Source: Spirochaetaceae bacterium
GTDB lineage: Bacteria > Spirochaetota > Spirochaetia > DSM-2461
NCBI GenBank assembly: GCA_965224705.1
Contig: OZ245056.1
Location: forward strand, 1,024,001 to 1,088,000
DNA: 64,000 bases
Direction of reading: 5' to 3'
A model generated the notes under the pieces. That model worked only from the letters and a program-made list of their open reading frames with translations. It had not been told where the DNA came from and did no database searches. The position numbers were made by a program, and so were the translations under genes. Within the stretch, counting starts at the first letter, position 1, and each line of letters begins with the position of its first letter. This document shows, piece after piece, positions 35,992 to 62,969 of the stretch.

Positions 35992-36903
35992 ATGGAAAAT
36001 CATTCTGTACCTTTTAACCGTTGTATTGGCCTGGCCGTTTTGGAAGTGGTGATGTCTAACCCAAATGGCGATCCTGATATGGAATCTGATCCTCGCACAA
36101 TAGACACTAACGGTCATGGCTTGATTACGCCTGTTTCTTATAAGCGTAAATTTCGTGATCTGGTTGAGGACAACGAAGGTCTTGTTTTTCAAACCGCCAA
36201 AGAAAAATTGAGTTTGGATGAAAGCCGATACAAGATTTTGGAATCCAGGGGGCGGAATCGTAAAGCAATCCTTGACATGGATAAACAAGAATTTAAAGAT
36301 ACTTATTGGGATGCCCGATTGTTTGGTAACACTTTTCTTGAAAGTCTAAAAGATAAAGATCTGAGTACTGAAGAAAAGACGCGTAAAAAAAACGGTGGTT
36401 ATGCGCATTTTATTCGTACCGGTGCAGTTCAAGTTGGGGTCGGTACATCTGTAGCACCTGTTGAAATTGAACGCCTAACCATGACCAATAAATCCGGTGT
36501 ACAAGAAGATAAAGACCGAGGCATGGCGCCTTTGGCTTTTCGCGTGGTGCGGCATGGTATTTACACTATTCCTTTTTATATCAACCCGTCGATTGCACAA
36601 AAAACAGGTGCGGATGCTAAGGATTTAGAACTCTTTAAGTTTTTGGCACCTCTGGTATATCAGCACACCGCTTCGGCTATTCGTCCGCAGGTTAATACCT
36701 TGCATGTTTGGTTTGCAGAGCACAAAAGTCCACTGGGTTCATGCCCTGACCATTTACTGATTGATGCCTTAACGCCTGTTGTTAAGGAAGATATTGATCA
36801 ACCTGGTGCACGAAGTGATTATCAGGTGCCAACACGGAGCGATTTAGACGAAGCAACCAGCCAGCGTTTTAATCAGATTGTTGACCTGTGTAATGTCAAA
36901 TAA
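35992..36903 (+). CDS. cas7: divergent Cas7 (Csd2/Csh2-like)
   Basis: SNPNGDPD..SDPR, YKRKFRD, YWDARLFGNTF, TGAVQ. Confidence 0.85.
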   Translation: MENHSVPFNRCIGLAVLEVVMSNPNGDPDMESDPRTIDTNGHGLITPVSYKRKFRDLVEDNEGLVFQTAKEKLSLDESRYKILESRGRNRKAILDMDKQEFKDTYWDARLFGNTFLESLKDKDLSTEEKTRKKNGGYAHFIRTGAVQVGVGTSVAPVEIERLTMTNKSGVQEDKDRGMAPLAFRVVRHGIYTIPFYINPSIAQKTGADAKDLELFKFLAPLVYQHTASAIRPQVNTLHVWFAEHKSPLGSCPDHLLIDALTPVVKEDIDQPGARSDYQVPTRSDLDEATSQRFNQIVDLCNVK

Positions 36904-41327: not shown

Positions 41328-41611
41328 GGCGCCTCTAAAAACCCGCTTTCGGAATCTGGCGCAGAGATTTTTCACTGATGCAAGGCGACAAAAACGGAGC
41401 TAGCTGGGCTGCGTGAGCATTCTGGCAACGCAGCAGCAGGGGATGCGAGTCTATGGACTCGCATCCTGAGAGAGTGCCGAGCGATAGCGAGGAAAAGCCG
41501 CCACGGATGGCGGCGAAAACGAACGAAGGCGGCTCTCCAGAAGCAAGCAGGAGGCTTGCTTCTGGAGAGAAGGGCAAAAATCGAGCCGTGAGGCGTAAGT
41601 CCGACAGACTC
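41328..41611. mobile_element. MITE-like element with extra internal palindromes
   Basis: Shares core and right end (AAGTCCGACAGACTC) with 11534-11694; different left end. Confidence 0.6.
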
Positions 41612-41634
41612 CTGGCTGCCGTTCAGAGGATAGA

Positions 41635-42285
41635 ATGAAAAAAGCAGCGCTAATGATATTACTCGCCGTTACAGGTTCGTTGTTTTCGGAAGAACCAATT
41701 CCGTTCAACGTCAAGATGATGTACTACTATGAATATCAGTTCCCAGACATAGTTGAGCTAACAATTGATTACCTCAATAGTGAATCATCACTTGAAGACA
41801 AGTGGGCTCATAAGCTAATTGCTTTCTACATAGCTCTCTTTGAGAATGATTCAACAGTCCGGTCAAAAGTCAAGAACTCGATAGACAGAATTTCCAGCAA
41901 TCGGTATGTAATCCAAAGAAGTCTGGACAAGACACCGTCTGATTATCTTGATCAGTTTCCTCCCTCACCCACAAAGAACGATTTATTCTGGAGCATGTTC
42001 TTCGCAACCGGTGATGGGGAGTACCTGAACTACCTTATCAAGAATATTCCTCTATATGAAAATCGAAAAGACTTGAATTTGTTCATGACTGGATCAACAG
42101 CGATATGGTCATTATCGGCTAACTCCAAACAACATGAGGCCGTATCTGAGTATATCGGAAGTATTAAAACCGAATCAGAATATGTCGGGCATTGGTTAAA
42201 CCAAATTCTAGAGCTTGATATAGGCGATTTTCGCGAAAATGTTGTGACGATTATAAAAAACCAGAAGGAACTCGGAATATGGTAA
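41635..42285 (+). CDS. secreted hypothetical protein, probable orphan gene cassette
   Basis: Signal peptide; followed by attC-like start AGCTAAC AGCTGTTAATGCGCTCCGG. Confidence 0.7.
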   Translation: MKKAALMILLAVTGSLFSEEPIPFNVKMMYYYEYQFPDIVELTIDYLNSESSLEDKWAHKLIAFYIALFENDSTVRSKVKNSIDRISSNRYVIQRSLDKTPSDYLDQFPPSPTKNDLFWSMFFATGDGEYLNYLIKNIPLYENRKDLNLFMTGSTAIWSLSANSKQHEAVSEYIGSIKTESEYVGHWLNQILELDIGDFRENVVTIIKNQKELGIW

Positions 42286-42405
42286 TCGAGAATGGCAGCT
42301 AACAGCTGTTAATGCGCTCCGGTCCTTCGGGCACAGATTATTCCGCCTGTCGTAAATAGCGCTTGACAGAACAAGACTGATATACCATCTTACGGCTCTT
42401 TCTTC

Positions 42406-42678
42406 CTAATACACATCACCGTAATCCCCCACGCTCACAAGGATGATACGCTCTCTTTCCAGGATAAGCTCTATGGTTATCCGGTAGGAGATATTGATGG
42501 AAATAGAGTGTAATTCCTTTAATTTGCCTTTCAGGGGATGGAGACGCAAAGAGGGGTGAGTTGGATTTAATCGTACCAATTTCAGGCATTTCTCATAGGA
42601 AGATAGCAGTTCGGGGTGTTTTCTGAAAAACTTCTTAGCTCGCCTAACATAGCTTTCCGTATAGACGAGTTCTCTCAT
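42406..42678 (-). CDS. RelE/ParE-superfamily toxin
   Basis: 90 aa; HPSLRLHPLKGKL..HSISINISYRI. Confidence 0.85.
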   Translation of the reverse strand: MRELVYTESYVRRAKKFFRKHPELLSSYEKCLKLVRLNPTHPSLRLHPLKGKLKELHSISINISYRITIELILERERIILVSVGDYGDVY

Positions 42679-42929
42679 TGTTTCAATGTCTTAATATGTT
42701 CGTCCACATCTCCGGTGATAAACTGCCCTTCGGCAATATCCCGACGGGTTTCCTCCAGGGCAGTATCCAGTTCACATTCACGCAGATGATTGTACTTTTC
42801 AAAGGTCATAACCACGTAGCGTTTTTTCCCCCTAACCGTGATTACCGCTTCCTCTTCCGAACCGATAACCCGTTCAATAAGGGATACGCCTCCAGTTTTC
42901 AGTTCATTGGCTGTGATTGTATTATTCAT
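42675..42929 (-). CDS. Phd/YefM-family antitoxin
   Basis: ITANELKT, AVITVRGKKRYVVM; overlaps the toxin start. Confidence 0.85.
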   Translation of the reverse strand: MNNTITANELKTGGVSLIERVIGSEEEAVITVRGKKRYVVMTFEKYNHLRECELDTALEETRRDIAEGQFITGDVDEHIKTLKQ

Positions 42930-43103
42930 AGCACTGCAAATAGTATTGAAGATAAAACGATTAGTCAAGGCCGTAGGCGGCAAAAGAACACAATGAGCTG
43001 ATACGGGAGACTGACTTAAAAGCGGCATGAAGCTGTATCGACTTAGGGACCATTATAGTGCCGCATTACAACAAGAATACCTCAAACATACATTTTCACA
43101 CAA

Positions 43104-43343
43104 AGTCTTCCGCTCTGAATAAATCAAGAACCTATCATTGCCTGACTGGCAGGGGATTGATTTTAACCTTACCGGTACGGAGATAGCGGATGCCATGGAC
43201 AGCCGCGGCGGCGGCACTGGTTGTGGTTGTGTAGGAAATCTTCAGCGATACGGCTTCTGTTCTCATATCCTCGTCTCCAATTCGGCTGAACCGGCCGCTG
43301 GGCGTGTTGATGAGAAGCTGAGTCCGGTTGGAACGCATGTAGT
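43104..43343 (-). repeat. 240-bp copy of the carB 3' end and downstream sequence (direct repeat of 51109-51348)
   Basis: Encodes MRSNRTQLLINTP...NPLPVRQ, near-identical to the CarB C-terminus. Confidence 0.95.
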
Positions 43344-43412
43344 TTGTTGAACCTGGGTTAAGAGCGCAGAGTGGGTTAGAGATCTCCTTGATGCATAGAC
43401 CGATTATAATGT

Positions 43413-43823
43413 ATGGTTATCATTGTGAATGTTGAAATCAAAGGATTCGACAATCAGCTTGCTGTAACAATCCCCTACAATAAGGTGTTGATCGATTCAG
43501 TAAGGAGTGTTTCCGGGAGAATATGGGACAGCAAGAGGAAATTTTGGCTGATTCCAGGCCGTACACCAGACTCCCACCTTTCTGTCCGCTCTGCCCAGGC
43601 GGTGTTTGACAATGCCTGCGAAAAATGTGAAATAACAAAGAAGGTCTCCATCCATTCCCTGCGCCACGCCTTTGCCACTCATCTTCCTGAAGAGGGTGTT
43701 GATCTTCGCTATATCCAGGAACTTCTGGGACATGTCAGTTCAAAGACTACAGAAATCTATACTCATGTATCCAAAACAGGGGTCAGGCAAATTATCAGTC
43801 CTTTGGACAGGGCGAGGGGTTAA
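43413..43823 (+). pseudogene. internally deleted tyrosine recombinase
   Basis: [27 protein letters not shown] present; N-terminal segment joined directly to the late catalytic part, box I missing. Confidence 0.85.
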
Positions 43824-43859
43824 GTGTATGAAATTCGTGGAGATAAGATTTAGTTATGT
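43821..43859 (+). other. attI-like cassette insertion site, array 1
   Basis: TAAGTGTATGAAATTCGTGGAGATAAGATTTAGTTATG is identical to 61850-61887 (reverse); identity stops just after the GTT core. Confidence 0.7.
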
Positions 43860-43930
43860 TCAATGCCCGGCTTAAGAGATTTGTAGTTCTCGGCCATCCG
43901 TGGCCTCGGGGGCAAAGGGAGATTTCTTTG

Positions 43931-44887
43931 ATGAATGATTTTTTTCAATATCCACCAGATCTATTTGATCTTATAGTACAAACTATTCCATTATTGAATC
44001 GTTCAAAGAAATCCGTTTTACTCTTTTTTAAAGGATCGGGTGTTTCAGAAAGTTTATATTCAGATATTTCAGATCAACTTTCATCTAATAAAGATTCCAT
44101 AAATAAATATGCTATCACAAGAACAATTTTAGAGCGAATCAATGAAGATTCAGACAAATATCTAAGAGAAAGAAGAGAACTACTAAAAAGAATTATAGAA
44201 TTTGAAGCATTTAGCACTTGCTGGGAAAATGACATTTTAAAAGCAAAAGGTTTGGTTTCTGAAATACAAAAGGTAGTAAATGTTAAAGATTCATTTACTC
44301 GTATGAATCAAGAAAGAGAAAAAGAACGAAAGAAAAAAACAGATGAATATTTGAAAAAAATCAATGAGATTAAAGTAAAAGAAGACAAAATAGCCAAACT
44401 TAAAGATGACTTTTTTAAATTGTTTGGAAACATAGAACCACATAAAAGAGGGAAAAAATTAGAATCAGTTTTGAATAGTCTTTTTTCGATCTATGAAATC
44501 TTAATTAAAGAAGATTTTAAACGAGTTTCAGAGAACAAAGAAGGTATTGTTGAACAACTTGATGGTGTCGTTGAAATTGACAATCAGATATTTTTAGTTG
44601 AAATGAAATGGAAAAAAGACTCAATTGGAAGCGATGATATATATGCTCATTTAGTGAGAATATATCATAGAACGAATGCTCATGGTTTTTATATTTCAGC
44701 TTCAAAATATACTCCATCTGCAATTGAAGCAGCAAAAGAAGCTCTGGTTAAGGGGACACTGCTCTGTTTTATTGATCTTGAAGAAATTGTTCAGTTACTT
44801 GAAAAAAAAGATAATTTGGTACAATTTTTTAAAGAAAAAATTCATGCAGCAATAATTGAAAAACAACCATATAAAGGGATTAAATAG
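43931..44887 (+). CDS. Mrr-like restriction endonuclease (cassette gene)
   Basis: RGKKLE, EQLDG...LVEMKW, ISASKYT; AT-rich. Confidence 0.8.
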   Translation: MNDFFQYPPDLFDLIVQTIPLLNRSKKSVLLFFKGSGVSESLYSDISDQLSSNKDSINKYAITRTILERINEDSDKYLRERRELLKRIIEFEAFSTCWENDILKAKGLVSEIQKVVNVKDSFTRMNQEREKERKKKTDEYLKKINEIKVKEDKIAKLKDDFFKLFGNIEPHKRGKKLESVLNSLFSIYEILIKEDFKRVSENKEGIVEQLDGVVEIDNQIFLVEMKWKKDSIGSDDIYAHLVRIYHRTNAHGFYISASKYTPSAIEAAKEALVKGTLLCFIDLEEIVQLLEKKDNLVQFFKEKIHAAIIEKQPYKGIK

Positions 44888-44954
44888 CAGGAATAAGAGA
44901 CTAAAAATCCGTCCATGGGTTTTTAGAAATTACAACCAAGCCGCCGGGCACTAA

Positions 44955-45039
44955 ACATAACAAGGCTTTCATGGCTCCAGCCTTCGGCTTCCGGCCCAAA
45001 TTGCCTTTGGCAACTTCATGAAAGCCTGAGACGTTAGGT
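44955..45039 (+). other. attC site
   Basis: ACATAAC...GTTAGGT with internal palindrome AGGCTTTCATG/CATGAAAGCCT. Confidence 0.85.
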
Positions 45040-45135
45040 ATAATACTCGACAAATTACATCTTTAGTCTTCGGCCATCCTTGGCCTCAGAAGAATAATAA
45101 TATAAAAACCATGATTGGTAGAATGAGGAAGTAAA

Positions 45136-45800
45136 GTGGCAAACAATTATTTTCAAGATGATGAACGCGAAAATGCTATGATTGAATTATTTGGTCTATA
45201 TAAGGCTGACGATGAGGGGCGTTCTGGTATAGATGCATTTCTTGAAATCGATGGTAAAAATCTACCTTTTGAACTTAAGACAACATCTACTGGGTCTGTT
45301 ACAACGGTAAGAGATTTTGGCCCCGATCATATAAAAAAATGGAAAAATAAGCACTGGTTAATTGGATCTTTTATCAGAGATCGGGAATTTTATTTGTATG
45401 GTTCACCGGAAAAAATGGCCACTTGGATTGAAGAGAAAGAGAATTATATTTCAACAGATTTCAAACTTGCTGATTTAATTCCACAAAAAATATCACTTTC
45501 AGATATGTTTGAAATTATCGGGAAAAAAGAAAAATATTCACTCGAGAATGCAAAGTCTATTCAAAAGAAGCAATATAAAATTGCAGAATATATACAAATG
45601 CAAGATATGGAAAATGGGTATTCACCAGAGAGGATGTTAAGAATTTTACAAGACCGTGCTAATTATTTAATACAGAGAGGAAGTACTCTTAATAATCTCA
45701 TATACCATATAGTTATTTCGACGGCTGGACAGAAATAACACACAATCATAAAAACAAGCTTCGAGAAATGGTTCAAGAGTATTTAAATTCAATTAATTAA
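45136..45800 (+). CDS. putative type II restriction endonuclease, apparent frameshift near 45695
   Basis: GIDA...PFELKT motif; convergent with a methyltransferase; a plausible tail continues in another frame. Confidence 0.65.
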
Positions 45801-46980
45801 ATGCTTTATGAACATTTTTGGCGACATTATATGCAACAGGTGGAGCAACAGAATTACCGATCTGACCTAAAACCTGATAAACAGCACCACCAAATTTCCA
45901 AGACTCAGGAAAGCCTTGTAGTAAAGCCACATCTTGTACTGATAATCTAAAATGTCCGTTTTTTGCAGGAAAAGCTGATGCTTTTTGTCTATCAGCCTGA
46001 ACACCATTGGGCCAAATTTGTAAGTCACCCCATGATTTTTGACCAGCAGTGCTATTTAAAATTGATGTTGTATTCCTCTTCCCGGTAAATGCACTTCTCA
46101 ATGTTGGGGATAAATTATCGTACTCTATATTGGGTAGACCTAATGCTTCCCTAACGCCTTTAGTCATTGGTAGCATTTCATTAAAAAAGTCTTTTGTTAA
46201 ATAATCATTATTCTTAAATCTATTCCAATTGTGTGTAGGAATTGGAATCTCGAAATTAGAGAAGTGCTTTTCATTTCTAAAACCTACAAAAAATACTCTT
46301 TTTCTTATTTGAGGAACACTAAAATCTGCTGTATGCATTTCAAACATTTTTATTTTATAATCTGATAATGGTTTTAGTATGTATTCATCAACAAACCCTT
46401 TGAATTTAGGAGAAATCAATCCCAAAACATTTTCCGCGACAAAACCATCAGGTTTGATTGTATTTACAGCTCTATTGAATTCTCCCCACATATTTCTTTC
46501 ATCATTTTTACCTTTTTGTTGTCCAGCAATTGAAAAAGGCTGACAAGGAGGACCGCCATGAATTATATTTACTTTACCTTTATATGAACCCCAATCTATT
46601 TTTGTCACATCCCCATTTTCAGGTCCACAAAATACTTTCCAATCAGGCTTATTTATATTGAAAGTTTCTCTGCAAATTGGAATTAACTCAAATGAACCTA
46701 TATGATTAAATCCTGCTTGATCAAAACCGAGATCTAATCCACCTCCACCGCTAAACAGACTTAAAGAAGTTAATGTGTTGTTTGTGATATAAGGCATTAA
46801 ATCCATAGGATTATACTGAGGAGTATTTACTTCATGCATTGGTTCTAAAAAACCTTCCATTGCTTTTTTCTTTGCAATCATAGACTCATATGATAGTTCT
46901 TTATAATACTTTCGTTTCTCATCAGTAATGTCATAATTTTTAATTGGTCGGTTTTTGTAAACAGTTGCTTTTGTAGGCAT
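45793..46980 (-). CDS. DNA (cytosine-5) methyltransferase
   Basis: SLFSGGGG, GGPPCQPFS, ENV, QIRKRVF, QIGNSV. Confidence 0.95.
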   Translation of the reverse strand: MPTKATVYKNRPIKNYDITDEKRKYYKELSYESMIAKKKAMEGFLEPMHEVNTPQYNPMDLMPYITNNTLTSLSLFSGGGGLDLGFDQAGFNHIGSFELIPICRETFNINKPDWKVFCGPENGDVTKIDWGSYKGKVNIIHGGPPCQPFSIAGQQKGKNDERNMWGEFNRAVNTIKPDGFVAENVLGLISPKFKGFVDEYILKPLSDYKIKMFEMHTADFSVPQIRKRVFFVGFRNEKHFSNFEIPIPTHNWNRFKNNDYLTKDFFNEMLPMTKGVREALGLPNIEYDNLSPTLRSAFTGKRNTTSILNSTAGQKSWGDLQIWPNGVQADRQKASAFPAKNGHFRLSVQDVALLQGFPESWKFGGAVYQVLGQIGNSVAPPVAYNVAKNVHKAFN

Positions 46981-46982
46981 TT

Positions 46983-47180
46983 TTACTCCTTAGAATTAGA
47001 ATCAATTTGCTTTATTGTGGGAAATAGCTCTTTTTGATCTCCATAACTAATTAGTTCGGAAGCTTCTTTTACAAACCACTCTTTCATGGTTTTTTGATTC
47101 TTCTCTAAGGCCATATATAAATTACGTTTTAATTCAGGATCAATTTCTAGTACGATTCTACCTGATTTTCCTCTTGCCAT
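46983..47180 (-). CDS. small putative DNA-binding regulator (ribbon-helix-helix-like)
   Basis: RIVLEIDPELKRNLY..L; directly upstream of the methyltransferase. Confidence 0.55.
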   Translation of the reverse strand: MARGKSGRIVLEIDPELKRNLYMALEKNQKTMKEWFVKEASELISYGDQKELFPTIKQIDSNSKE

Positions 47181-47295
47181 AAGATCTCCTATGTAACATA
47201 TGTAATATAACATAGAAATCCAATTCTTACAAGCCTTTCAGAAAAGTACATCCGTGTACTTTCCTGAGCATTATTCTAAAGCTGTCGAGTACTAC

Positions 47296-47336
47296 ACCTA
47301 ACAGCGTCTATGCGTTGCGACCTTCGGTCTTGGCCC
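47296..47336 (+). other. left part of an attC interrupted by a group II intron
   Basis: TGTCGAGTACTACACCTAAC complements the cassette start GTTAGGTATAATACTCGACA. Confidence 0.75.
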
Positions 47337-49373
47337 ATCAAGTAGGAGGCACCCTGCGAAAGCAGGGATGCCGTCCTCTCACAGAACCGTGCGTACGGGT
47401 CCGTACACGGCTCCTCATGCATGTGTTCATATTTCTTTCAGTCTCAGGCTGAATAGATAAACTGCCCGAGTTCTTCAATGAAATAGCGATTGGGAAAAGC
47501 TTTGTGCATAGCCGGACTCCTTGAAGTCGCCCAGATACTCATATTGTTGATGATACGATTGGCCCCATACTCTGATACTCCCCTTTTTAACAGGGTTCGT
47601 TTCAGATTCCGGGGCCTCTTGTGCTCATACACTATTCGGGATCTCAATCGCCTTCTGGCATGGGCTTCTACCCTTTGAAGCTGGCGCTTATCTTCGGTTA
47701 TACCGTAATATCCACTCCAGCCCCGGTACCAGATATTCAGCTTTTCCACTGTAGCTTCAATAGACTGATTCGTTCGTCTGGGTATCAATTCACAAAGCCT
47801 ATCATTGGCTCTGCTCATTGACATCGACGAAATCGTAATCATTCCGGCCACAATGGTCATACCCAAAAACTTGATAACTTCGGCCTTTCCTGTTTTGCTC
47901 TTCTCCTCGTTGACAACGAGTTTCAGTTTCTTTTCAATGAAGGTTGAAATACTTCCCATCACTCTATCCGCCGCCTTTTGGGACTTAACGAATATGCTGC
48001 AGTCATCAGCAAATCGACAAAACTCCAGTCCTCGCTTTTCCAGTTCCCTGTCCAACTCGTCCAGAATCACATTGCTGAGCAATGGACTTAATGGACTACC
48101 CTGTGTCGTTCCGACAAAGGTATTTTCTTTCCGTCCATTCACCATCACCCCGCTCCGCAGAGTCAGGCCGATCAAACGCAGAATCCGGTTGTCGATCTTA
48201 TTGACCGTTCTCAGCTATCTGATGATTCTATCGTGGCTGACCCTATCAAAGAACTTCGACAGGTCGATATCCACCACAAAATCCTTACCGCTGCTGACTA
48301 TCGACTGAGCCTTTTCAATAGCCTGTTTCTGACTTCGTCCAGGACGAAAGCCAAAACTGCTGTCTGAGAAGGTGGGGTCGATAATGGGTTCGAGCAGAAA
48401 TTTGATGGATGCCTGGACCACTCTGTCACGCACACACGGCACGCCCAGAAGTCTCACTCCTCCTCCCAGTTTCGGGATCTCCACTCGTCTGACCGGCTGA
48501 GGTTTGCAGCTCCAGGCTTTCAGCTCCGCTGAGAGTTCCCGGATTTCCTGCTCAAGATTGGCTTTGTAATCCTCTACAGTGATCGCGTCGATGCCTGATG
48601 ACCCCCTGTTCTTACTCACCTCTCTAAAGCCTTGCCTCAATACCGATGGACGGCATAATTCCTCAAAAAGTCTCATGCTGTCCACTTTGAACAGTTCTCC
48701 TTGTCCCAATTTTCTCTCCTTCGGTCACAGACGAATATTTCTGCGTGTTCCACATCTCTTTTCCTTGTTTACGTCAGGAATGGGTGGAACACTCCCTAAT
48801 GGCTGGTTTCGTCTGATCTGATACTCATCGTTCCAACAGAACGTCTGCATGTTCCCCCCTTCACCTTTAACCTCCTTGTCCTTTGATTCCTGTTTTATCC
48901 TCAATATATGTTGCCATATCGTCACAGGCAGAAATCTTTACGGCTACTATGGGTTCTTCTGACTGCCGGTGGAAGATTACCCTACATCCCTGCACGGCTT
49001 AGGAAATCTTATGGCGCTGTTCCACAGTTTCCATTCCACAGGCCCTCCCCGGGTAAGACCAATCTCCATTTCATATCCCGCCTGCCTTCTGCACAATTAT
49101 GGGGTTACGTAAAGGATATGGGACTTCGATAGCCGAAGGTATCTCATCCTCCATAACTGCCTTTCAAAGGTTCACTCTCGTTCAGGCGAATATTTTGACT
49201 TAGACTTCCTTCAGATTCCTCATTGGGAAAGACAATCTCCATCTGGTCAGCAGGCATACTCTCAATGCGTTGTCTATCTTTCTTCGGACACCCTTGTCTT
49301 TGTCTACAAATTCCCTCCTTTCAGGGCTTTGTCGGGATTTTCACCCGCTGGATATTGGTCATGCCGGGCACAC
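47337..49373 (-). mobile_element. group II intron (class C-like)
   Basis: 5' GTGTGCCCGGCATG; domain V GAGCCGTGTACGGACCCGTACGCACGGTTC; domain VI ending CCTACTTGAT. Confidence 0.9.
47444..48709 (-). pseudogene. ltrA: intron reverse transcriptase/maturase with in-frame TAG at 48215-48217
   Basis: RRVEIPK..G.RLLGVP, SFGFRPGRS, DLSKFFD, QGSPLSPLL, RFADD; no endonuclease domain. Confidence 0.9.
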
Positions 49374-49509
49374 TTCGCACAACACAGTATATCTGGCTCG
49401 CTCGTGCCCTCGCTCGACCCATATTTGCCAAAAACTTATTGATTTTCAGAAATATCGCCTTTACTATCAAAGGCAAATCTGTCAATCTTGAGAAAAAGGA
49501 GACAGAATT

Positions 49510-49812
49510 ATGGCAATTTCAGATGTCAAAACAGACGGTTCTTGGATTATCGTTTACGATGATTCAGGAAAAGAAAAAAAACGAATGGGTGGTAGTCGTA
49601 AAGAGGTTGTAGGTATGACAGGTGATTTTTTTGTTACACTTGAAGGTTCTTGGATAGTAACTTACGATGAAAACTGTAAAGAAATCAAAAGGATGGGTAG
49701 TTCAAATAAAGTTGTTAGAAGTGCCGTTGGTTCAACATTTACAGTGAAGGAAGGCAGTTGGATTGTCACATACGATAAAAACTGCAAAGAGCAGGCCCGA
49801 AGGGGGGCATAA
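49510..49812 (+). CDS. small repeat-containing hypothetical protein
   Basis: Three copies of GSWI.(T/V)YD...KE; AGGAG RBS. Confidence 0.7.
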   Translation: MAISDVKTDGSWIIVYDDSGKEKKRMGGSRKEVVGMTGDFFVTLEGSWIVTYDENCKEIKRMGSSNKVVRSAVGSTFTVKEGSWIVTYDKNCKEQARRGA

Positions 49813-49941
49813 CTTTCTTCTATAAAATTGGCTGGCGACACTTCCTATATTATCCTCATCAAGTATTTGCGTTTTTACTTTAACAGAAGCTATGATAGTG
49901 TGAGATTATCAAATGTTGTGTAATTTAGGAGTATATGATTC

Positions 49942-50649
49942 ATGAACAGGACAGAAAAATACAATGATGAGCTACTTAAAATAGAGCATTATAGTACCCA
50001 TCCTCAAATGATTCCTTTTGTTGGTAAGTATTGGGGAGATTACTGTAAGAAATTGCTTGTTTTAGGGGAAAGTCATTATTTGCCGCTAAGTAGCTCTCTT
50101 GAAATGATAAAAAATTGGTATAAAACTCCATACAAAAGTTTATCTCAGGAAGAGCAAAACTGGACTACAACGGCAAGAATAATTGATGATGAGGGTTATC
50201 CATACGAAGAAGGAGGGAAAATATATCCTGAAAAACCTCATGGTATTTATAAAAATATAGAGACTGCTATACGATCCATAAGCAGTAATGATCTGCAAGT
50301 TGAGGAGAACATGCTTCGTTATATTGCGTTTATGAATTTTTTTCAGCGTCCTTCTCAAAAAACTGGAGATAGTATAGACTGTGATTTAGAAGATAGGCAA
50401 AAAGCGAATGATACTTTAAAATCAGTTATTGCTATAATAAAACCTGACTACATCTTCTTTGTAAGTAGTAAATCTTGGGACTACTATGATAAACAATCAT
50501 TTCCAAAGAATAAGACAGGTCACAGTTGTCATCCTACCTGTCACTGGTGGAATAGAGAAAGTTATAAATATACCCGGTTCGGAGACTCACCTGTGACAGG
50601 ACGAGAATCTTTCCTCCAGTTTTTATCAACGAATGAAATTATGAAATAA
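49942..50649 (+). CDS. hypothetical cassette protein, possibly uracil-DNA-glycosylase-like fold
   Basis: PFVG, LLVLGESHY, FMNFFQRP, HP motifs; followed by a truncated attC (GCCTAAC 50684). Confidence 0.55.
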   Translation: MNRTEKYNDELLKIEHYSTHPQMIPFVGKYWGDYCKKLLVLGESHYLPLSSSLEMIKNWYKTPYKSLSQEEQNWTTTARIIDDEGYPYEEGGKIYPEKPHGIYKNIETAIRSISSNDLQVEENMLRYIAFMNFFQRPSQKTGDSIDCDLEDRQKANDTLKSVIAIIKPDYIFFVSSKSWDYYDKQSFPKNKTGHSCHPTCHWWNRESYKYTRFGDSPVTGRESFLQFLSTNEIMK

Positions 50650-50887
50650 AATAAAGGCTTTGAATCCTGAAAATAATTACTTCGCCTAACAGCCGATAAG
50701 TCTCCGTTCGCTACGCTCACTTCGCCCTACGGGGAAATTGCCCTTTGGGGCTGTATCAGTAACACTCTGACAACCGAGCAGACAATGGCCCTCTCAATTG
50801 TTGTTCAAAATCCTCATTATTTTTAACATAAGCCAGAAGAATCGTTCCACTGGCAAATAACCGGCTAATACAAGCCACAAATGGGAT

Positions 50888-51108
50888 GTTGTCACACAAG
50901 TTAAGTCCACTTAGGAGGAGACAACATGCAGCGCTGCAGTGTTCAAGTTAGGAATACTATCATGCAAAAGATGATCGGCCCGGAGAAACGGAAGGCAGCT
51001 GATCTCTCAGAGGAATTCGGGGTTTCTGCAGCCACAATCTATGGGTGGAAATCAAAGCTGAAAGACGCTACCCTTTCAGTTAAGGGAAATGAATCAACCA
51101 GTCATGAG
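50888..51108 (+). pseudogene. IS3-family left end and orfA fragment
   Basis: Near-identical to 57963-58180 and to 62401-62620 (reverse); HTH EEFGVSAATIYGWK. Confidence 0.75.
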
Positions 51109-51139
51109 AGTCTTCCGCTTTGAATAAGTCAAGAACCTA

Positions 51140-54100
51140 TCATTGCCTGACCGGCAGGGGATTGATTTTAACCTTACCGGTCCGGAGATAACGGATGCCA
51201 TGGACAGCCGCGGCGGCGGCACTGGTTGTGGTTGTGTAGGGAATCTTCAGCGACACAGCTTCTGTTCTCATATCCTCGTCTCCAATTCGGCTGAATCGGC
51301 CGCTGGGCGTGTTGATGAGAAGCTGAATCCGGTTGGAGCGCATGTAGTCTACAACATTGGGATGACCTTCATGCACTTTCAATATAACCTCGGCAAATAT
51401 GCCATTTTCCCATAAGTACTGTGCTGTTCCACGGGTGGCACAAATGTTAAAACCAAGTTCTACCAGATCTTTCACTATGGGTAGAATACTATCCCTGTCT
51501 CTCTTGTGCACCGAGACAAATACCCGCCCCTTAATCGGAAGAATGCTGCCCACCGCAGCCTGGGATTTCGCAAAGGCTTCGCCGAAGCTTTCACCAGTGC
51601 CGATAGCTTCTCCTGTGGACATCATCTCCGGTCCCAAAACCGGGTCCAGGCCGGAAAATCGGTCAAACGAGAAAACGGCCTCTTTTATTGCCCAGCCGGT
51701 GAGGCAGTTCCCCTCACCGTAGTTCTCCTTGTTGATCAGTCCCTGCTCAGCCAGAGATTTTCCCTCCCAAACCTTGACTGCAGCGGCAATCAGGTCAACA
51801 CCCGAAACTTTGGAAAGAAATGGAATCGTGCGGGATGCCCGGGGATTCACTTCAATGACATAGAGAATACCATCCTTCACCGCGAATTGGATGTTCAGTA
51901 ATCCGACAATCTCAAACTCCCGGGCAATGCTTTGTGCGGCCTTCCGCATTGCTTCCAAAATATTCGGTGTCGATTTGTACGGCGGAAACACCGTTGCCGA
52001 ATCTCCTGAATGAATGCCCGCTGCTTCGATGTGCTGGAGAATGCCGCCGATGTAAATATTCTTTCCATCCGCAACGGAATCAAGGTCGTATTCAAAGGCA
52101 TCCTCAAGGAATTGATCCACCAGGACCGGACTTTCTGCCGTTACAGGAATATTTCCCGTAATGAATCCCTGGAGATCTTCTTCGCTGTAGGCAATCACCA
52201 TACTGCGTCCTCCCAGAACAAAGGAGGGCCGGAGCAGTACAGGGAAACCAATGTCCTGAGCCAGAGTCACCACTTCCTCCCGGCAGACAGCGATGCGGTT
52301 CTTTGGCTGCCGCAGCCCCAGCCGGATGATGGCTTCGGAGAAGAGCTGCCGGTTTTCGGTCCGGCGGATTTGCTGGACGCTGGTACCGATAATGCAGGCA
52401 CCGGTCGCCGCAAGTTCTTCTGCCATATTCAGCGATGTCTGTCCTCCTAATTGTACGGCGACATGCCGTGCCTTCTCCTTGCTGAGAACATCCAGGACAT
52501 GCTCGCTGGTGAGCGGCTCCATGTAGAGTCGATCCGATGTGTTGTAATCAGTGGAGACGGTCTCTGGATTGCTGTTGATCATCACTGTCTTTCGGCCCAT
52601 TTTTTGCCATGTCATGGATGCCAATGTGCAGCATGTATCGAATTCCAGTCCTTGCCCAATCCGATTCGGCCCCGAAGAGATAATGACGACACTGTCTTCT
52701 CCGAGAGCCTCTCCCTCGTCTTTTTCTCCCCAGGTAGAATAGAAATACGGCGTTGCCGCCTCAAACTCTCCCGCGCAGGTGTCCACTAGGTGGTAGCAGG
52801 GCATTAAGCCGTTTGTTTTGCGCAGGGATTGCAAGGCATGGACGCTTGTTCCGGTTAGTGAAGCTATGCGCTTATCCGATAGTCCCATACGCTTCGCATC
52901 CAGATAATCTCTTGTGCCGAGTTTTTTACCGGCCTTGGACAGGAATGCTTCCAAGTCCACCTGGATAAGTAATTGACTGAGAAACCAGATGTCAAAGCCG
53001 GATTTTTTGGACACAGGCAGCAGGGCCTTTTCCCCCTTCCTTTTAAGCACTGTGAATGCGGCCTGCAGTCGGCGGGGATGGGCGTTCTGGAGAATCATCT
53101 CCTCTTCATTCCGGCTGACTTTCAATTCTTCCATGCCGTCGACTCCGAACTCCGAGGCTCGTAAAGCCTTGTTGAGCGCTTCAAGGGCCGTCCGTCCCAG
53201 AGCCAGGGATTCACCAACGGATTTCATCTGACTTCCCAGCGCGCTATAAGCGGTGGGAAACTTCTCCATTTCAAATCGAGGAACTTTGACCGCGCAGTAG
53301 TCCAGTGTCGGCTCGAAGGCTAATGCGGTCTTGCCCGTGATTTCATTGAGTATCTCATCTAATGTGTAGCCTACAGCCAACTTAGCTGACCCCCGTGCAA
53401 TGGGGAATCCCGTGGCCTTGGATGCCAATGCGGACGAACGGGACACGCGGGGATTCATTTCAATGACGACCATTCTATTTGTTCCGGGTTGAACGGCGAA
53501 CTGTACATTGGAGCCGCCGCAGTCTACCCCGACCGCCCGAAGTATCCTGATGGCCGCGCTGCGCATCTTCTGATACTCACGATCCGAAAGGGTTTGGGCT
53601 GGAGCGATGGTGATGGAATCACCCGTATGAATACCCATGGGGTCAATATTTTCTATGGAACAGACGATTACCGCATTATCCATCCGATCCCGCATGACTT
53701 CGAGTTCAAACTCCTTCCAGCCTATAAGAGATTCCTCCACCAGCGCCTCGCCCGTTGGGCTTTCCCGAAGGGCTCGTTCCACCATAGATGCCAATTCTTC
53801 TTCATGATAGGCAATGGCACCGCCCATTCCGCCCAGGGTAAAACTGGGACGGATAATCAATGGAAATCCAATGTCCCGGGCCATGGCCCAGGCTGTTGAG
53901 ACATTGCGGCAAATGGCTGAGCGGGGTGATTCCAATCCCAGGGATTCGATCAGTTTCTTGAAGCTATGCCTATCCTCTGCTTTGCGGATAGACTCAACAG
54001 AGGCACCGATTATCTCAACATTGTATCGATCCAGAATCCCAAGCTCTGAGAGTTCCAGTGTGAGGTTCAATGCCGTCTGCCCTCCCATGGTAGAGAGAAC

Positions 54101-58525: not shown

Positions 58526-58564
58526 GAGTCTGTCGGACTTACGCCTCACGGCTCGATTTTTGCC

Positions 58565-58706
58565 GGTTAACCAGCATCGACCGTTTACGTATAACACTCT
58601 ACCACAGCCGCTAGAATCTGCAAGATCTATGACAGAGGCGAATGTGCCCGAAGGGCCGGAGGCAATAACGCAAGTTATCGCCGGAGCGCATCAACAGCTG
58701 TTAGAT
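58565..58706 (-). other. truncated attC site
   Basis: Minus strand GTCATTTCATCTAAC complements the cassette start GTTAAATGAAATGAC. Confidence 0.7.
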
Positions 58707-58751
58707 GAAATGACAGCCGAAGAACCGTTCCCTAAGAAATCAATTGGAGAA

Positions 58752-59228
58752 CTAGGGAATCCCCAGCTCCAACATCTTCTTATGAATACCCCCGAGAACA
58801 TTGTTTTTTCGTTGCATGGTGTTGCTTTCATCGTTCCCGGAGTAAATGTCGGATATCGAGTCTAAGTATTTCGTGGATTGTATGAGTATCTCATCAATAC
58901 TAATAATCTGCCCGACTTTAAATCCCATGCATCGCATGATCCTGGTATCGATATGATTGTTGAATTCTTCTTTCCCATTGAAGTCCACTCGGTGTTGAAT
59001 TGTGTCAACGCATTTACCGAACTTCAACATTTTGCAGTTCCTACAGATATCATCCGACTTAACGACTAGCCTGATCTTAGATACTCTATTTTCGTATATC
59101 AGATTCCCTACGTTGTGATAGGAATGCCCATATGGGTGTTCGACCAAGTCTTTTCCTATTCCGTAATCACGAATTATGTCGAAAAAGTGATGTATTCTCA
59201 GTTCAACCATTTCACGGCCTTGTAGCAT
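58752..59228 (-). CDS. DUF1284-like cassette protein
   Basis: LRIHH, DDICRNC motifs. Confidence 0.6.
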   Translation of the reverse strand: MLQGREMVELRIHHFFDIIRDYGIGKDLVEHPYGHSYHNVGNLIYENRVSKIRLVVKSDDICRNCKMLKFGKCVDTIQHRVDFNGKEEFNNHIDTRIMRCMGFKVGQIISIDEILIQSTKYLDSISDIYSGNDESNTMQRKNNVLGGIHKKMLELGIP

Positions 59229-59276
59229 TCGTTCTTCTGAACATCTTCTAGACTTTCATAATAACATCGTCATTTC

Positions 59277-59480
59277 ATTTAACGGCCCGCTGTTATCTGA
59301 CGTTTGCCGCCCCGAAGGGCTGGCCCAGATTTTGCCAATTATCCAGTAACAACTGTTCTCTGAACAAGACTCTACCACGACGAAACCAATTCTGCAAATC
59401 TGTGACAGAGGCAAATGCGGCCGAAGGTCCGGAGGCCGACGACGAAGTTGGCGGCCGGAGCAGATCAACAGCTGTTAAAT
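59277..59480 (-). other. long attC site (~204 bp)
   Basis: Minus strand ATTTAAC AGCTGTTGATCTG...CAGATAACAGC...GTTAAAT. Confidence 0.75.
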
Positions 59481-59519
59481 GAAAAAGACGTTGTGAATGC
59501 TATTTGACTGAGCAGGGAC

Positions 59520-60425
59520 CTACAAGAGCTTTTCGACAGCAGAAATTCGATCTTCAACATAAGCCTGGTCAATCGAATCGGGGAAATCTCGAAGGCGAAG
59601 GAACAAGCGCAGGGCTCGTTCATAGTTTGCGGACGCCATCTCAGCCATCGCCAAATTATTGATTATTATGTAGTCATTTGGCTCAAGTTCATATGCTAAG
59701 GATAGATAATGTGCCGCCTGGGCATGATTGTCGATCGCGGAATAGTAGTAGGCAATGATGTTGTATCCAAAAACATTCTGTGGATAGAGTTCAATCTGCA
59801 GTTTTGAAGTTTCATACAAGGCAGAAAGGCTTTCGGGAGATGAGACTCGTAACCATGCGGAGTAGTAGTCCTGTATTACACTGAGAAAAAATTCTTGAGT
59901 ACCAGGCGTTGGTTGATTTCGAGACCATAGCCATTTATTGTTGTTTGTCAACGAATACCTCAATGCACTCTTTAGTACCAGCGATTGGTTTTCGTACTCA
60001 CCGATTTGCTGCAAGGTGTGTATTAACCCGAATCTCATGTCCAGACGATCCGGAAATTTCTTGATTCCGTTCTGGATTACGTCGATTGCAGAGTTTTTAT
60101 TTCTCTCTTCATAAGTTATGCGGTCGTACATGTAGCCGACGACCTCATCATCTCCGTCCTTTGTGAGCTCCATATAACGCCCGTCAGGAGGCGGGTACCG
60201 ATACGTTCCAGTAACGGTGTCACGACCGAGTGCCAGGTAGTAATTGAAATACCCCACATAGACTTCGGGATCATCTGGATACTTCGAAATCCATTGATCC
60301 AAATGGGCTTTCATTTCGTCGAGATTTCCATCTTTATAAAGGCTATCGAAAGTATCTTTGTTGTCTGCAAATGAAACTGATGCGATGGTTATGACAAGTA
60401 CGAATACAAGATATCTTATTCTCAT
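59520..60425 (-). CDS. secreted TPR-like cassette protein
   Basis: Signal peptide; FPDRLDMRFG; C-terminal TPR-like helices. Confidence 0.7.
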   Translation of the reverse strand: MRIRYLVFVLVITIASVSFADNKDTFDSLYKDGNLDEMKAHLDQWISKYPDDPEVYVGYFNYYLALGRDTVTGTYRYPPPDGRYMELTKDGDDEVVGYMYDRITYEERNKNSAIDVIQNGIKKFPDRLDMRFGLIHTLQQIGEYENQSLVLKSALRYSLTNNNKWLWSRNQPTPGTQEFFLSVIQDYYSAWLRVSSPESLSALYETSKLQIELYPQNVFGYNIIAYYYSAIDNHAQAAHYLSLAYELEPNDYIIINNLAMAEMASANYERALRLFLRLRDFPDSIDQAYVEDRISAVEKLL

Positions 60426-60444
60426 TCGAAGAATTCCCTTTTTC

Positions 60445-60535
60445 ATTAAACGTTCCGACAATATGTGAAGTCTAGCACGAAGTGGTAGACTTGGCGAAGC
60501 CCGAAGCGAAGCGGAGCATATATTGTCTGTTATAG
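60445..60535 (-). other. attC site
   Basis: Minus strand CTATAAC AGACAATATATG...CATATTGTC...GTTTAAT. Confidence 0.8.
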
Positions 60536-60551
60536 GATGTATTTGGAGTGG

Positions 60552-60983
60552 TTAGAAGATACTTCTTTGCCAGGTCCCCTCATTTATTTTTTGATTTGAT
60601 TCACCTTTTGAAAATCCATTTTGATCAAAGTGTAACTCTATAATAGGATATTTTCCATAATAAGTGTCTTGTCCTGCTTCAAACCTTAAATAAAAATATG
60701 GAGCGTCACTAGCTGAAGCATAGGTACCATCCCATAGTAATGAAAGTGTATGGTAGTGAATTGATGAAATCCTCTTTATTATAGCATCGGGAACTGTTAT
60801 TAGTTTATGGGGTAAAGATATTAAAATAGACTGGATTTCATTCTGACTAAAGGATATTTTTATTTCCTCTCCTGTAGAGTATGAAATCGTAATATCCCTT
60901 GGATTTTCAAATCTATCCTTATGAGCACGTACAGGACTGATTATCAGAACAAAGAAAATCAAAAAATAAAGATTTCTATTCAA
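60552..60983 (-). CDS. secreted hypothetical cassette protein
   Basis: Signal peptide; lies between two attC sites. Confidence 0.7.
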   Translation of the reverse strand: MNRNLYFLIFFVLIISPVRAHKDRFENPRDITISYSTGEEIKISFSQNEIQSILISLPHKLITVPDAIIKRISSIHYHTLSLLWDGTYASASDAPYFYLRFEAGQDTYYGKYPIIELHFDQNGFSKGESNQKINEGTWQRSIF

Positions 60984-61007
60984 TAGAGATATCCCTCCAA
61001 ATATTTC

Positions 61008-61152
61008 CTATAACGTTTTGCCGTTATACGACGTTTTGTGTTCTTGCCAAAGGCAAGATTGGCGGAAAAATTGCGAACTGCAATTTTTGTGACAAAACAA
61101 AATGTGCCGCAGGCCAAGGGCGAAGCCCGCAGCGTATGAACGGCTGTTATGC
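61008..61152 (-). other. attC site
   Basis: Minus strand GCATAAC AGCCGTTCATACG...CGTATAACGGC...GTTATAG. Confidence 0.8.
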
Positions 61153-61848: not shown

Positions 61849-61887
61849 GCATAACTAAATCTTATCTCCACGAATTTCATACACTTA
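61849..61887 (-). other. attI-like site, array 2
   Basis: Same sequence as 43821-43858; core GTTATGC complements GCATAAC of the first cassette's attC. Confidence 0.7.
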
Positions 61888-62116
61888 ACCCCTTGCTCTG
61901 TCCAAAGGGCTGATAATTTGCCTGACCCCTGTTCTGGATATAGCGAAGATCCACACCCTCTTCAAGAAGATGAGTGGCAAAGGCGCGGCGCAGGGAATGA
62001 ATGGAGACATCCTTTGTTATTTTACATTTTTTGCAGGTATTGTCAAACACCGCCTGGGCAGAGTGGACAGAAAGGTGGGAGTTCGGTGTACGGCCTGGAA
62101 TCGGTCTATGCATCAA
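61885..62116 (-). pseudogene. second, further deleted copy of the tyrosine recombinase
   Basis: [22 protein letters not shown]; lacks the LGH and catalytic Tyr segment. Confidence 0.8.
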
Positions 62117-62400: not shown

Positions 62401-62632
62401 TTCATGACTGGTTGATTCATTTTCCTAACTGAAAGGGTAGCGTCTTTCAGCTTTGATTTCCACCCATAGATTGTGGCCGCAGAAACCCCGAATTCCTCTG
62501 AGAGATCAGCGGCCTTCCGTTTCTCCGGGCCGATCATCTTTTGCAAGATAGTATTCCTGAATTGAACACTGTAGCGTTGCATGTTGTCACCTCCTACGTT
62601 GACTTAACTTGTGTGACAACTACTTTGGCACA
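62401..62632 (-). pseudogene. IS3-family left end and orfA fragment
   Basis: Reverse copy of 50888-51108 and 57951-58180. Confidence 0.75.
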
Positions 62633-62679
62633 GCGCGATTTGGCGAAGCCCAAGCCGAAGGCGCAGCACATAGTTGTTG

Positions 62680-62969
62680 TTATATGCCGTTTTTTTTGAA
62701 TTTATGATAAGAAAATATATTTAGTGTTATTATCATAATAATTATAGATATGGACAAAGTAATTATTATTTCTTCAATAACCCAATTATCTTTTATACTA
62801 ATGAATTTTATAAATATAAATATAGTGTAGGTAACAATTTCAATAATACCAGCTATAATGAGAATAATTCTGTTTGTATTAACCTTTAAAAAAATCCTTG
62901 CAAGAAACATTATCAATACAAATGAAAATGAAAATATCACAGGAATAAATAGAATAAGATAAAAAAAAA
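62680..62969 (-). pseudogene. 3' part of a membrane-protein cassette gene cut by ISL3, with partial attC at 62636-62685
   Basis: Stop lies within ATATAAC, followed by GCTTCGCCAA shared with attC 60445-60535. Confidence 0.55.

What the first reader, a model, noticed from the sequence alone, without database searches (positions are those of the whole stretch)
43413..50750. Integron-like cassette array behind a tyrosine recombinase with no visible IntI insertion
Seen: a recombinase remnant is followed on the same strand by a 38-bp site ending GTTATG and then attC-bounded cassettes. The identical site follows the second recombinase copy (61850-61887), and the two loci diverge right after the GTT core into unrelated cassettes. 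In both loci the first cassette's start is complementary to its own attC left end (GTTATGT/ACATAAC; GTTATGC/GCATAAC), as expected for insertion of circular cassettes. Known: classical IntI carries an extra segment (ending ...RRHH) just before the HxxR box and is usually divergent from its array. Here that region reads PG...HLSVRSAQ as in Xer-like enzymes, though a deletion removes upstream sequence. Inference: a distinct integrase family running attI/attC arrays that standard tools would call integrase-less clusters.
Basis: partly seen in the sequence, partly recalled or inferred. Interest (0 to 1): 0.85.

Follow-up and report, generated by a model that had tools for sequence, protein, structure and literature searches.

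The report
Integron-like array, HARP-domain recombinase
This is a broken-down example of a widespread gene-capture system that is laid out like an integron, but whose recombinase lacks the segment thought essential for integron chemistry and whose hairpin sites are built differently, so standard integron finders would overlook or mislabel it.

Summary
Observation largely confirmed. 43413-43823 is a dead remnant (internal deletion of about 220 residues) of a roughly 350-aa tyrosine recombinase. A 38-bp site starts at its stop codon and cassettes begin at G|TT. Seven copies of the site occur in the genome; the five with a core readable as GTTRRRY head different first cassettes, and one cassette is second in one array and first in another. 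Only one hairpin site in 43413-50750 is complete; the rest is decayed (group II intron, IS). Full-length relatives lack the IntI insertion and carry an N-terminal HARP-like domain. Co-oriented arrays follow them: 94 sites downstream versus 4 in control strands (52 loci). In a held-out metagenome set, 9 of 12 HARP-bearing and 0 of 14 HARP-less relatives had sites. The sites differ from IntI attC (right spacer 2-4 nt longer, usually no L-box extra base). 22 of 27 genomes tested have no IntI. Best reading: a second integron-like system with its own recombinase family; recombination itself is untested. Ten literature searches found no description. The scan noted this class before on other DNA (62 findings).

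The parts
43104..43343 (-). Duplicated 3' fragment of carB joined in front of the recombinase remnant (also in front of the second copy); rearrangement debris
   Evidence: 95% identical to 51109-51348
43413..43823 (+). Remnant of a HARP-like-domain tyrosine recombinase: residues 1-44 match the N-terminal domain, the rest the C-terminal 90 residues; about 220 residues (SAM domain, catalytic Arg and Lys) deleted; not functional
43821..43858 (+). attI-like site starting at the recombinase stop codon; inferred crossover between G43853 and T43854
   Evidence: same position of a matching core in relatives
43854..45033 (+). Cassette 1, ORF 43931-44887 with an Mrr_cat nuclease domain; 30.5% G+C against 47% for the genome
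   Evidence: PF04471 E 3.8e-7
44955..45039 (+). Complete hairpin site (type B): 11-bp unbroken stem, 1-nt left and 5-nt right spacer
   Evidence: z -2.8
45034..47336 (+). Cassette 2: C5 DNA methyltransferase 45793-46980(-), frameshifted ORF 45136-45738(+) inferred to be the partner restriction nuclease (no family hit), small ORF 46983-47213(-); start GTTAGGT matches ACCTAAC at 47296
   Evidence: PF00145 E 1e-54, TIGR00675
47296..47336 (+). Left half of the second hairpin site, cut at the intron
47337..49373 (-). Group II intron with a broken reverse transcriptase/maturase frame; two further full copies elsewhere in the genome at non-array sites
   Evidence: RF00029, RF02001; TIGR04416 in two pieces
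49377..49441 (+). Left half of a third hairpin site; no valid right core
49510..50649 (+). Two low-G+C ORFs (100 aa, 235 aa) without family hits; cassette-like, but boundaries cannot be paired
50684..50748 (+). Left half of a fourth hairpin site, followed by unrelated DNA and an IS end (50888-51110)
61888..62102 (-). Second, shorter recombinase remnant with two further deletions
61850..61887 (-). Identical attI-like site; inferred crossover after G61855
61014..61854 (-). Locus 2 cassette 1 (DUF4919 ORF); its hairpin site spans 61152-61008
   Evidence: z -6.0
60451..61013 (-). Locus 2 cassette 2 (143 aa; site 60535-60445); a 99.3% identical copy is the first cassette behind the attI-like site at G000:1194632, with the junction exactly at G|TT
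59283..60450 (-). Locus 2 cassette 3 (TPR protein; 204-nt site 59480-59277)
   Evidence: z -2.8
58560..59282 (-). Locus 2 cassette 4 (DUF1284) with the left part of its site from 58706, truncated

Best explanation
The window holds two decayed copies of a chromosomal gene-cassette platform that works like an integron but is run by a different tyrosine recombinase family (about 345-390 aa: HARP-like domain, SAM-like domain, catalytic domain without the IntI insertion). The gene is followed on the same strand by its attachment site. Shown from sequence: new cassettes sit at G|TT directly behind the gene; each cassette's start is the complement of its own hairpin's left core, as expected if it moved as a circle; the hairpins have a conserved, covarying stem of their own geometry. 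Inferred mechanism (about 0.65): four recombinase subunits join the double-stranded attachment site to the folded bottom strand of the hairpin site, exchange one strand at G|TT, and replication resolves the junction, as in integrons. The asymmetry that IntI reads through its I2 helix and the extrahelical base is here supplied by the 2-4 nt longer right spacer and a bulge beyond the 9-11 bp stem. More speculative (about 0.35): the HARP-like domain binds the single/double-strand junction or bulge and takes the place of I2. In this genome no intact copy remains, so the arrays are frozen and are being eroded by IS elements and a group II intron.
For: Relatives of 344-418 aa lack the insertion (motif spacing 65-69 in 112 of 120, against 106 in IntI). 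52 insertion-less loci from the phylum: 94 type-B sites downstream on the same strand in 228 kb, against 1 on the other strand and 2+1 in 184 kb upstream; 23 of 26 loci with at least 2 kb have one. Held-out set with the detector fixed: HARP-bearing 24 sites in 56.5 kb (9 of 12 loci with at least 1 kb), HARP-less 0 in 43.9 kb (0 of 14). Circle test: left core matches the cassette's own start in 42 of 46 informative pairs, its own right core in 1 of 46. The first site's core recurs within 320 nt of the stop codon in 27 of 37 loci and 12 of 13 held-out HARP loci. Geometry: 107 of 109 chain-validated sites have offset 2-4 and 103 no extra left base; 6 of 6 IntI-array sites have offset 0 and an extra base. 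Genome G015 holds both systems, with 11 type-A sites at its IntI and 3 type-B plus 1 type-A at its insertion-less enzyme. No match spanning the insertion in G000 or in 22 of 27 genomes. Stem positions 3-11 pair in 60-76 of 78 sites with several pair types; G:T pairs fall on the bottom strand 28 times and on the top 6. One cassette occupies two positions with an exact junction.
Against: No recombination was measured. The window's own enzyme is dead and its distal array cannot be parsed. Only one member (L101) of the remnant's closest clade had enough downstream DNA to test. Two of the four complete window sites carry an extra left-arm base, and one type-A site lies in a type-B array (L102), so the two systems may exchange cassettes. 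The same-genus genome G009 has an IntI, so one may have acted in this lineage. The detector was shaped on the window, L101-L103 and the g56 arrays and slightly favours bottom-strand G:T pairs; 8 of the IntI-less genomes are one genus and have masked bases. The array-linked enzymes are not shown to be one clade. The HARP fold match is weak (E 0.083; Z 4.5). Three of 26 loci with long flanks had no type-B site.
Confidence: 0.76

Rival explanations
1. The family runs the arrays, but as an ordinary double-strand (Xer-like) recombinase with two strand exchanges, reading the inverted repeats as protein-binding sites or cruciforms and not as a folded single strand.
For: It lacks I2, which is described as what confers single-strand recombination (PMC7790495, passages). 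Structurally the model is as close to archaeal XerA (Z 20-21.5) as to VchIntIA (Z 18.7). The stems mostly lack the L-box extra base.
Against: The distance between the two cores varies from 59 to 225 nt, stem sequences vary while pairing is kept, and wobble pairs favour the bottom strand: features of a structure-read site.
Confidence: 0.1
2. A classical IntI, elsewhere in the genome or since lost, built the arrays; the insertion-less recombinase is a passenger or merely supplies a secondary site.
For: IntIs occur in the class and in the same genus; cores are the canonical GTTRRRY; CALINs are commonly explained this way (PMC4889954, passages); some mixing of site types.
Against: No IntI in G000 or in 22 of 27 genomes, 13 of which have two or more type-B sites; IntI arrays use another geometry even in the same genome; arrays start within 320 nt of this gene across Spirochaetota and Bacteroidota loci and follow the HARP-bearing forms only.
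Confidence: 0.09
3. In this genome the repeated site and its varying neighbours are only products of IS-driven duplication and deletion; the hairpins are terminator- or REP-like repeats.
For: The genome is full of repeats and IS pieces; the remnant travels with a carB fragment and IS ends; three copies of the site lack the remnant.
Against: Junctions fall exactly at G|TT; 7 of 10 cassette starts checked in G000 match their own left core at 7 of 7 and 3 at 6 of 7 (read); intact relatives show the same layout without this decay.
Confidence: 0.05

Closest known systems
Sedentary chromosomal integrons (IntI, attI, attC; VchIntIA 2a3v; reversed-orientation spirochaete integrons)
   Same: Tyrosine recombinase next to an attachment site; GTTRRRY/RYYYAAC cores; co-oriented cassettes that move as circles; hairpin sites; cargo of nucleases, methyltransferases and unknown ORFs; 2a3v is the top Foldseek match (E 1.4e-14).
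   Different: No IntI insertion; extra N-terminal HARP-like domain; site always downstream of the gene; hairpins with offset spacers and usually no L-box extra base.
XerC/XerD and archaeal XerA (NF040815; 4a8e, 5hxy)
   Same: Insertion-less catalytic domain; NF040815 is the best NCBIfam family (205-248 bits, cut-off 220; over it in 5 of 14); top VIA-align matches.
   Different: HARP-like domain; linked to cassette arrays; G000 has separate Xer-like genes; Xer-like controls show background site counts (4 in 166 kb).
CALINs (Cury et al. 2016, PMC4889954)
   Same: Clusters of attC-like sites with no IntI nearby.
   Different: Here a specific non-IntI recombinase and an attachment site head the cluster; the paper's passages seen offer loss, rearrangement, secondary-site insertion or an unknown mechanism, not a second recombinase family.
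Homology-independent gene insertion in Riemerella anatipestifer (PMC13148043, section 11 read)
   Same: A gene inserts site-specifically with a short 5' and a 140-bp attC-like 3' flank; the mechanism is stated to be unresolved; Bacteroidota loci here carry 125-135 nt type-B sites.
   Different: No recombinase was identified in that section; the link to this family is my inference and was not tested.

Membership tests
Integron (IntI) | Tyrosine recombinase catalytic domain (PF00589) | tested here: met
   99 of 99 relatives; the remnant keeps only the C-terminal part
Integron (IntI) | IntI-specific insertion (I2 helix) before the HxxR box | tested here: not met
   TIGR02249 under cut-off in 14 of 14; insertion profile at most 5.9 bits. 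IntegronFinder's own intI_Cterm model was not available.
Integron (IntI) | attI with GTTRRRY core adjacent to the recombinase gene | tested here: met
   27 of 37 and 12 of 13 related loci
Integron (IntI) | attC with R''/R' cores and a folding strand | tested here: met
   fold z -2.8 to -6.0 for four complete window sites; conserved pairing
Integron (IntI) | Canonical attC unpaired features (matched spacers, extra base in L'') | tested here: not met
   107 of 109 sites with offset 2-4, 103 without extra base; IntI arrays 6 of 6 canonical; no type-A site in G000; two window sites have an extra base one position earlier
Integron (IntI) | Cassettes mobile as circles, inserted at G|TT | tested here: met
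   sequence signature only: 42 of 46; one cassette in two positions
Integron (IntI) | Pc promoter driving the array | tested here: inconclusive
   1 promoter-like match in 43300-44000, 1.2 expected by chance
Integron (IntI) | Bottom-strand single-strand recombination with replicative resolution | not testable with these tools
   only the wobble bias 28 to 6
XerC/XerD/XerA | Curated family score | tested here: inconclusive
   far under XerC/XerD cut-offs; NF040815 over cut-off in 5 of 14, under in the closest relatives
XerC/XerD/XerA | Acts at a dif site for chromosome dimer resolution | not tested
   separate Xer-like genes exist in G000
CALIN | Two or more attC found by the IntegronFinder model, no intI nearby | not testable with these tools
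   IntegronFinder and its attC model are not available; my canonical-geometry scan missed most type-B sites
HARP domain (PF07443) | Profile and fold match | tested here: inconclusive
   57 of 99 at E up to 0.01, best 4.1e-8; Foldseek top hit 4o66 E 0.083, prob 0.96; Z 4.5, rmsd 1.9, 47 aligned, rank 23

The most novel reading that the evidence does not exclude
A second, undescribed class of integron, widespread in Spirochaetota and Bacteroidota, in which an insertion-less recombinase recombines folded single-stranded sites of a different geometry and a HARP-like DNA-junction-binding domain replaces the I2 helix. It would be either a convergent invention of single-strand cassette recombination or a living stand-in for the pre-I2 ancestor of IntI, and could explain gene capture in lineages thought nearly free of integrons.
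Probability: 0.5. Interest if true: 0.92.

Novelty: new variant of a known kind. Interest (0 to 1): 0.8.

Why it matters
Integron integrases are defined, and found by software, through the I2 insertion, which is held to be necessary for cassette capture (PMC7790495, passages), and a lack of natural intermediates is named there as the obstacle to studying their origin. A natural family without I2 that heads long cassette arrays makes that question directly testable. It would also expose an uncounted pool of mobile cassettes (defence, restriction-modification, toxin-antitoxin and unknown genes) in phyla where integrons are reported as rare (PMC9024848, passages), offer an explanation for part of the CALINs, and could give a new structure-specific recombinase for engineering. 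This particular locus is a dead example; its value is as a pointer and for its internal record of cassette movement.

Tried and rejected
A scan with canonical attC geometry found only 1 site near the window and few at related loci, which first suggested that Bacteroidota and most phylum members had no arrays; this was a detector failure, corrected. A strict fixed-register detector missed the g56 arrays, and its attI pattern was wrong (7 of 37), so those counts are not used. An nhmmer profile of left halves gave only weak scores in G000 (best E 2). Rfam has no family for these sites. PADLOC named only the methyltransferase. An exact pattern scan for the attI-like site in metagenome contigs found nothing. 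No full-length relative was found in the 13 other genomes of the genus; 2 of 38 genomes of the family have one. The wide structural search of the N-terminal domain alone could not be run, so its fold rests, where unrelated small alpha/beta folds score as high. Public contigs show higher depth over the remnant and site than over the cassettes and loose ends just behind GTTA, consistent with several copies heading different cassettes; the skipping joints have short sides and unknown middles and are not taken as excision evidence. The intron as an attC-specific element was rejected: its other copies sit at non-array sites. The careful tree did not finish; the quick tree (125 rows; 22 short-flank loci and proteins under 250 aa left out, remnant not included) is unrooted and shows no order of events.
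Full report
WHAT IS IN THE WINDOW. The window is G000:C1:1024001-1088000 (3.0 Mb, 47% G+C). The ORF 43413-43823 encodes 136 aa that match the C-terminal end of tyrosine recombinases (PF00589; TIGR02249 positions 235-314 only) and, weakly, HARP at its start (E 0.003). Against full-length relatives its first 44 residues align to the N-terminus and the rest to the last 90 residues, so about 220 residues, with the SAM-like domain and the catalytic Arg and Lys, are deleted. The 38 nt from its stop codon (43821-43858) are identical to 61887-61850 on the minus strand, behind a second, shorter remnant.

Cassette 1 (43854-45033, Mrr_cat ORF) starts GTTATGT and its site starts ACATAAC; cassette 2 (methyltransferase, presumed nuclease, small ORF) starts GTTAGGT and its site starts ACCTAAC at 47296. 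Only the first site (44955-45039) is complete. The second is cut by a group II intron (47337-49373, minus strand), and those at 49377 and 50684 are left halves; the two distal ORFs cannot be paired with a start. Locus 2 has three complete sites of 145, 91 and 204 nt (z -6.0, -3.5, -2.8). Cassettes are 30-43% G+C against 53% for carB.

COPIES IN THE GENOME. Seven copies of the site have at most 6 mismatches in 35 nt; four lie behind recombinase remnants. Reading, 7 of 10 cassette starts match their own left core at 7 of 7 and 3 at 6 of 7; the cores of the copies at 992360 and 994903 are degenerate and were not paired. The cassette 61013-60451, second in locus 2, is first behind the site at G000:1194632 (99.3% identical), the junction falling exactly at G|TT; the two copies share 9 more bases beyond the right crossover. 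This is what insertion of one more cassette at the attachment site, or its excision, would leave. G000 has no intact recombinase of this family and no IntI: TIGR02249 matches never cover the insertion, tblastn with five IntIs of relatives finds only Xer-like genes and the remnants, and an insertion profile gives at best 17 bits in a 69-aa unrelated frame.

THE INTACT ENZYME. The 120 best longer relatives are mostly 344-418 aa with PF13495 and PF00589, many with PF07443; two of the named close ones are from Spirochaetales assemblies. All 14 scanned stay under the integron-integrase cut-off. The spacing from the KxKxR motif to HxxR is 65-69 in 112 of 120 (8 not scored), against 106 in IntIs of related genomes. 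An alignment shows both parts of the insertion missing, about 31 aa before and 10 aa after the WLFP motif. The model of P0084 (pLDDT 90) matches VchIntIA 2a3v and archaeal XerA about equally. The separate N-terminal domain (pLDDT 94) has SMARCAL1 HARP as top Foldseek hit, weakly; VIA-align puts it among XPB N-terminal, MotA C-terminal and HARP domains at Z 4.5-5.3, below one unrelated match. Pfam HARP hits 57 of 99 relatives. That HARP binds single/double-strand junctions is recalled, not from a call.

ARRAYS FOLLOW THE FAMILY. 48 of 401 genomes of the phylum have a full-length relative. Comparing arms without assuming geometry revealed two site types: type A at IntIs (3/3 spacer, extra left base after 5 bp) and type B behind the insertion-less enzymes (right spacer longer, unbroken 9-11 bp stem, later bulge). 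With a fixed classifier, 52 insertion-less loci gave 94 type-B and 1 type-A sites downstream on the same strand (228 kb), 1 on the opposite strand and 3 in 184 kb upstream; 11 IntI loci gave 21 type-A and 2 type-B upstream on the opposite strand and 1 type-B downstream; 27 long relatives from other phyla, mostly Bacteroidota, gave 21 downstream (97 kb) against 1, 4 and 5; 24 short relatives 7 against 4, 2, 3; 24 Xer-like controls 4 against 1, 6, 4. Because the classifier was shaped on some of these loci, it was applied unchanged to 80 new metagenome loci: 38 HARP-bearing gave 24 sites in 56.5 kb downstream (2 opposite, 5 upstream in 141 kb; 9 of 12 loci with at least 1 kb), 32 HARP-less gave 0 in 43.9 kb (0 of 14), 8 cut at the 5' end gave 7, and 2 had no motif. 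The left core matched the cassette's own start in 42 of 46 informative pairs and its own right core in 1. The first site's core was found within 320 nt of the stop codon in 27 of 37 and 12 of 13 loci; a given 7-mer is expected there in a few percent of cases (my estimate). Among 109 chain-validated sites 107 have offset 2-4 and 103 no extra left base; stems keep pairing while their sequence varies. Of 27 genomes chosen for having the enzyme or its remnant, 4 have an IntI over cut-off and one a split IntI; 22 have none, and 13 of these have two or more type-B sites; 8 are one genus and several have masked bases. In the quick tree IntIs form one group (SH-aLRT 99); the array-linked enzymes lie in a 90-row group (88) that also holds 15 short recombinases without arrays; the remnant's closest relatives form a group of 10 (100), of which only L101 could be tested and has 6 sites.

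MECHANISM. Shown by sequence: position of the attachment site, crossover at G|TT, movement as circles, a conserved hairpin, linkage to the HARP-bearing insertion-less enzyme, independence of IntI. Inferred: integron-type single-strand exchange on the folded bottom strand with replicative resolution (variable core distance, covarying stem, wobble bias 28 to 6, with the caveat that my score slightly favours bottom-strand wobble). Speculative: the HARP-like domain substitutes for I2. Rivals are a double-strand Xer-like mechanism by the same family (0.10), IntI in trans (0.09) and mere IS debris (0.05).

COMPARISON WITH WHAT IS KNOWN. It works like a sedentary chromosomal integron but fails two membership features: the I2 insertion and canonical attC geometry. 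It is not a XerC/D by score or context. Papers seen: PMC4889954, 10.1101/2022.02.06.479319, PMC5737381, PMC7923331, PMC7790495, PMC8352920, PMC9024848, PMC3789691, PMC5331189 (passages only; the last two irrelevant); PMC3607928 (first of four parts; it states that Treponema is the only spirochaete clade known to carry integrons); PMC13148043 (passages and section 11). Ten full-text searches returned no description of such a system; the library lacks most subscription journals and no supplements were read, so CALIN tables of the IntegronFinder papers may list some of these arrays. The scan's own notes report the same class on other DNA (62 findings in at least 56 genomes); they agree with the reading I recorded before seeing them and prompted the second look at Bacteroidota loci, but they are not evidence.

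VERDICT. Real feature; decayed local example of a probably undescribed integron-like system with its own recombinase family and site geometry. New variant of a known kind; interest 0.8; confidence 0.76 that this family runs the arrays by integron-type chemistry or close to it.

Noticed in passing
window 42297-42375 (+), 41635-42285 (+), 42406-42940 (-): A further left half of a hairpin site follows a 216-aa ORF upstream of the remnant, next to a Phd/RelE-like toxin-antitoxin pair on the other strand: probably more cassette debris.
   Followed up: no
window 62620-62690 (-); G000 about 994100 and 870924: The same IS end interrupts hairpin sites at a similar point in three places; it may target these hairpins.
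   Followed up: partly
window 47337-49373: The group II intron's copies share a TTCG flank, a motif common just before the left core and in inner loops of the sites; its two flanks here come from different sites, implying a deletion of at least one cassette.
   Followed up: partly
window 45136-45790: The presumed restriction nuclease is frameshifted near 45696 in this assembly, while contigs of runs X3 and X5 differ there by one base, so the break may be recent or an assembly error.
   Followed up: partly
G000:1088497 (just beyond the window), 1750803, 1194632, 992360, 994903, 870145: Other copies of the attI-like site or of type-B sites with their own cassettes; at least three remnants share the same internal deletion, so cassette differences arose after the enzyme copy beside them was already dead, pointing to action in trans.
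   Followed up: partly
L100 (G009:C1:214841-215200): A same-genus genome has an 86% identical C-terminal remnant and a similar site, interrupted at the core by another repeat element, with no array.
   Followed up: partly
L101 first three cassettes; L111 upstream array: Short cassettes without an evident ORF, in both the insertion-less and the IntI array; in L111 a unit of about 400 nt is repeated many times.
   Followed up: no
window 41366-41627: A miniature repeat family with well over 100 partial copies in the genome.
   Followed up: no
window 35992-39238 (+): ORFs of 303 and 786 aa look like type I-C Cas7 and Cas3 (recalled motifs, not tested).
   Followed up: no
L041, L076: Two short (270-283 aa) HARP-less relatives from Patescibacteria each had two type-B calls downstream; chance or a further variant.
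   Followed up: no
L022: Two HARP-domain recombinase genes in tandem in an archaeal assembly, at a contig end.
   Followed up: no
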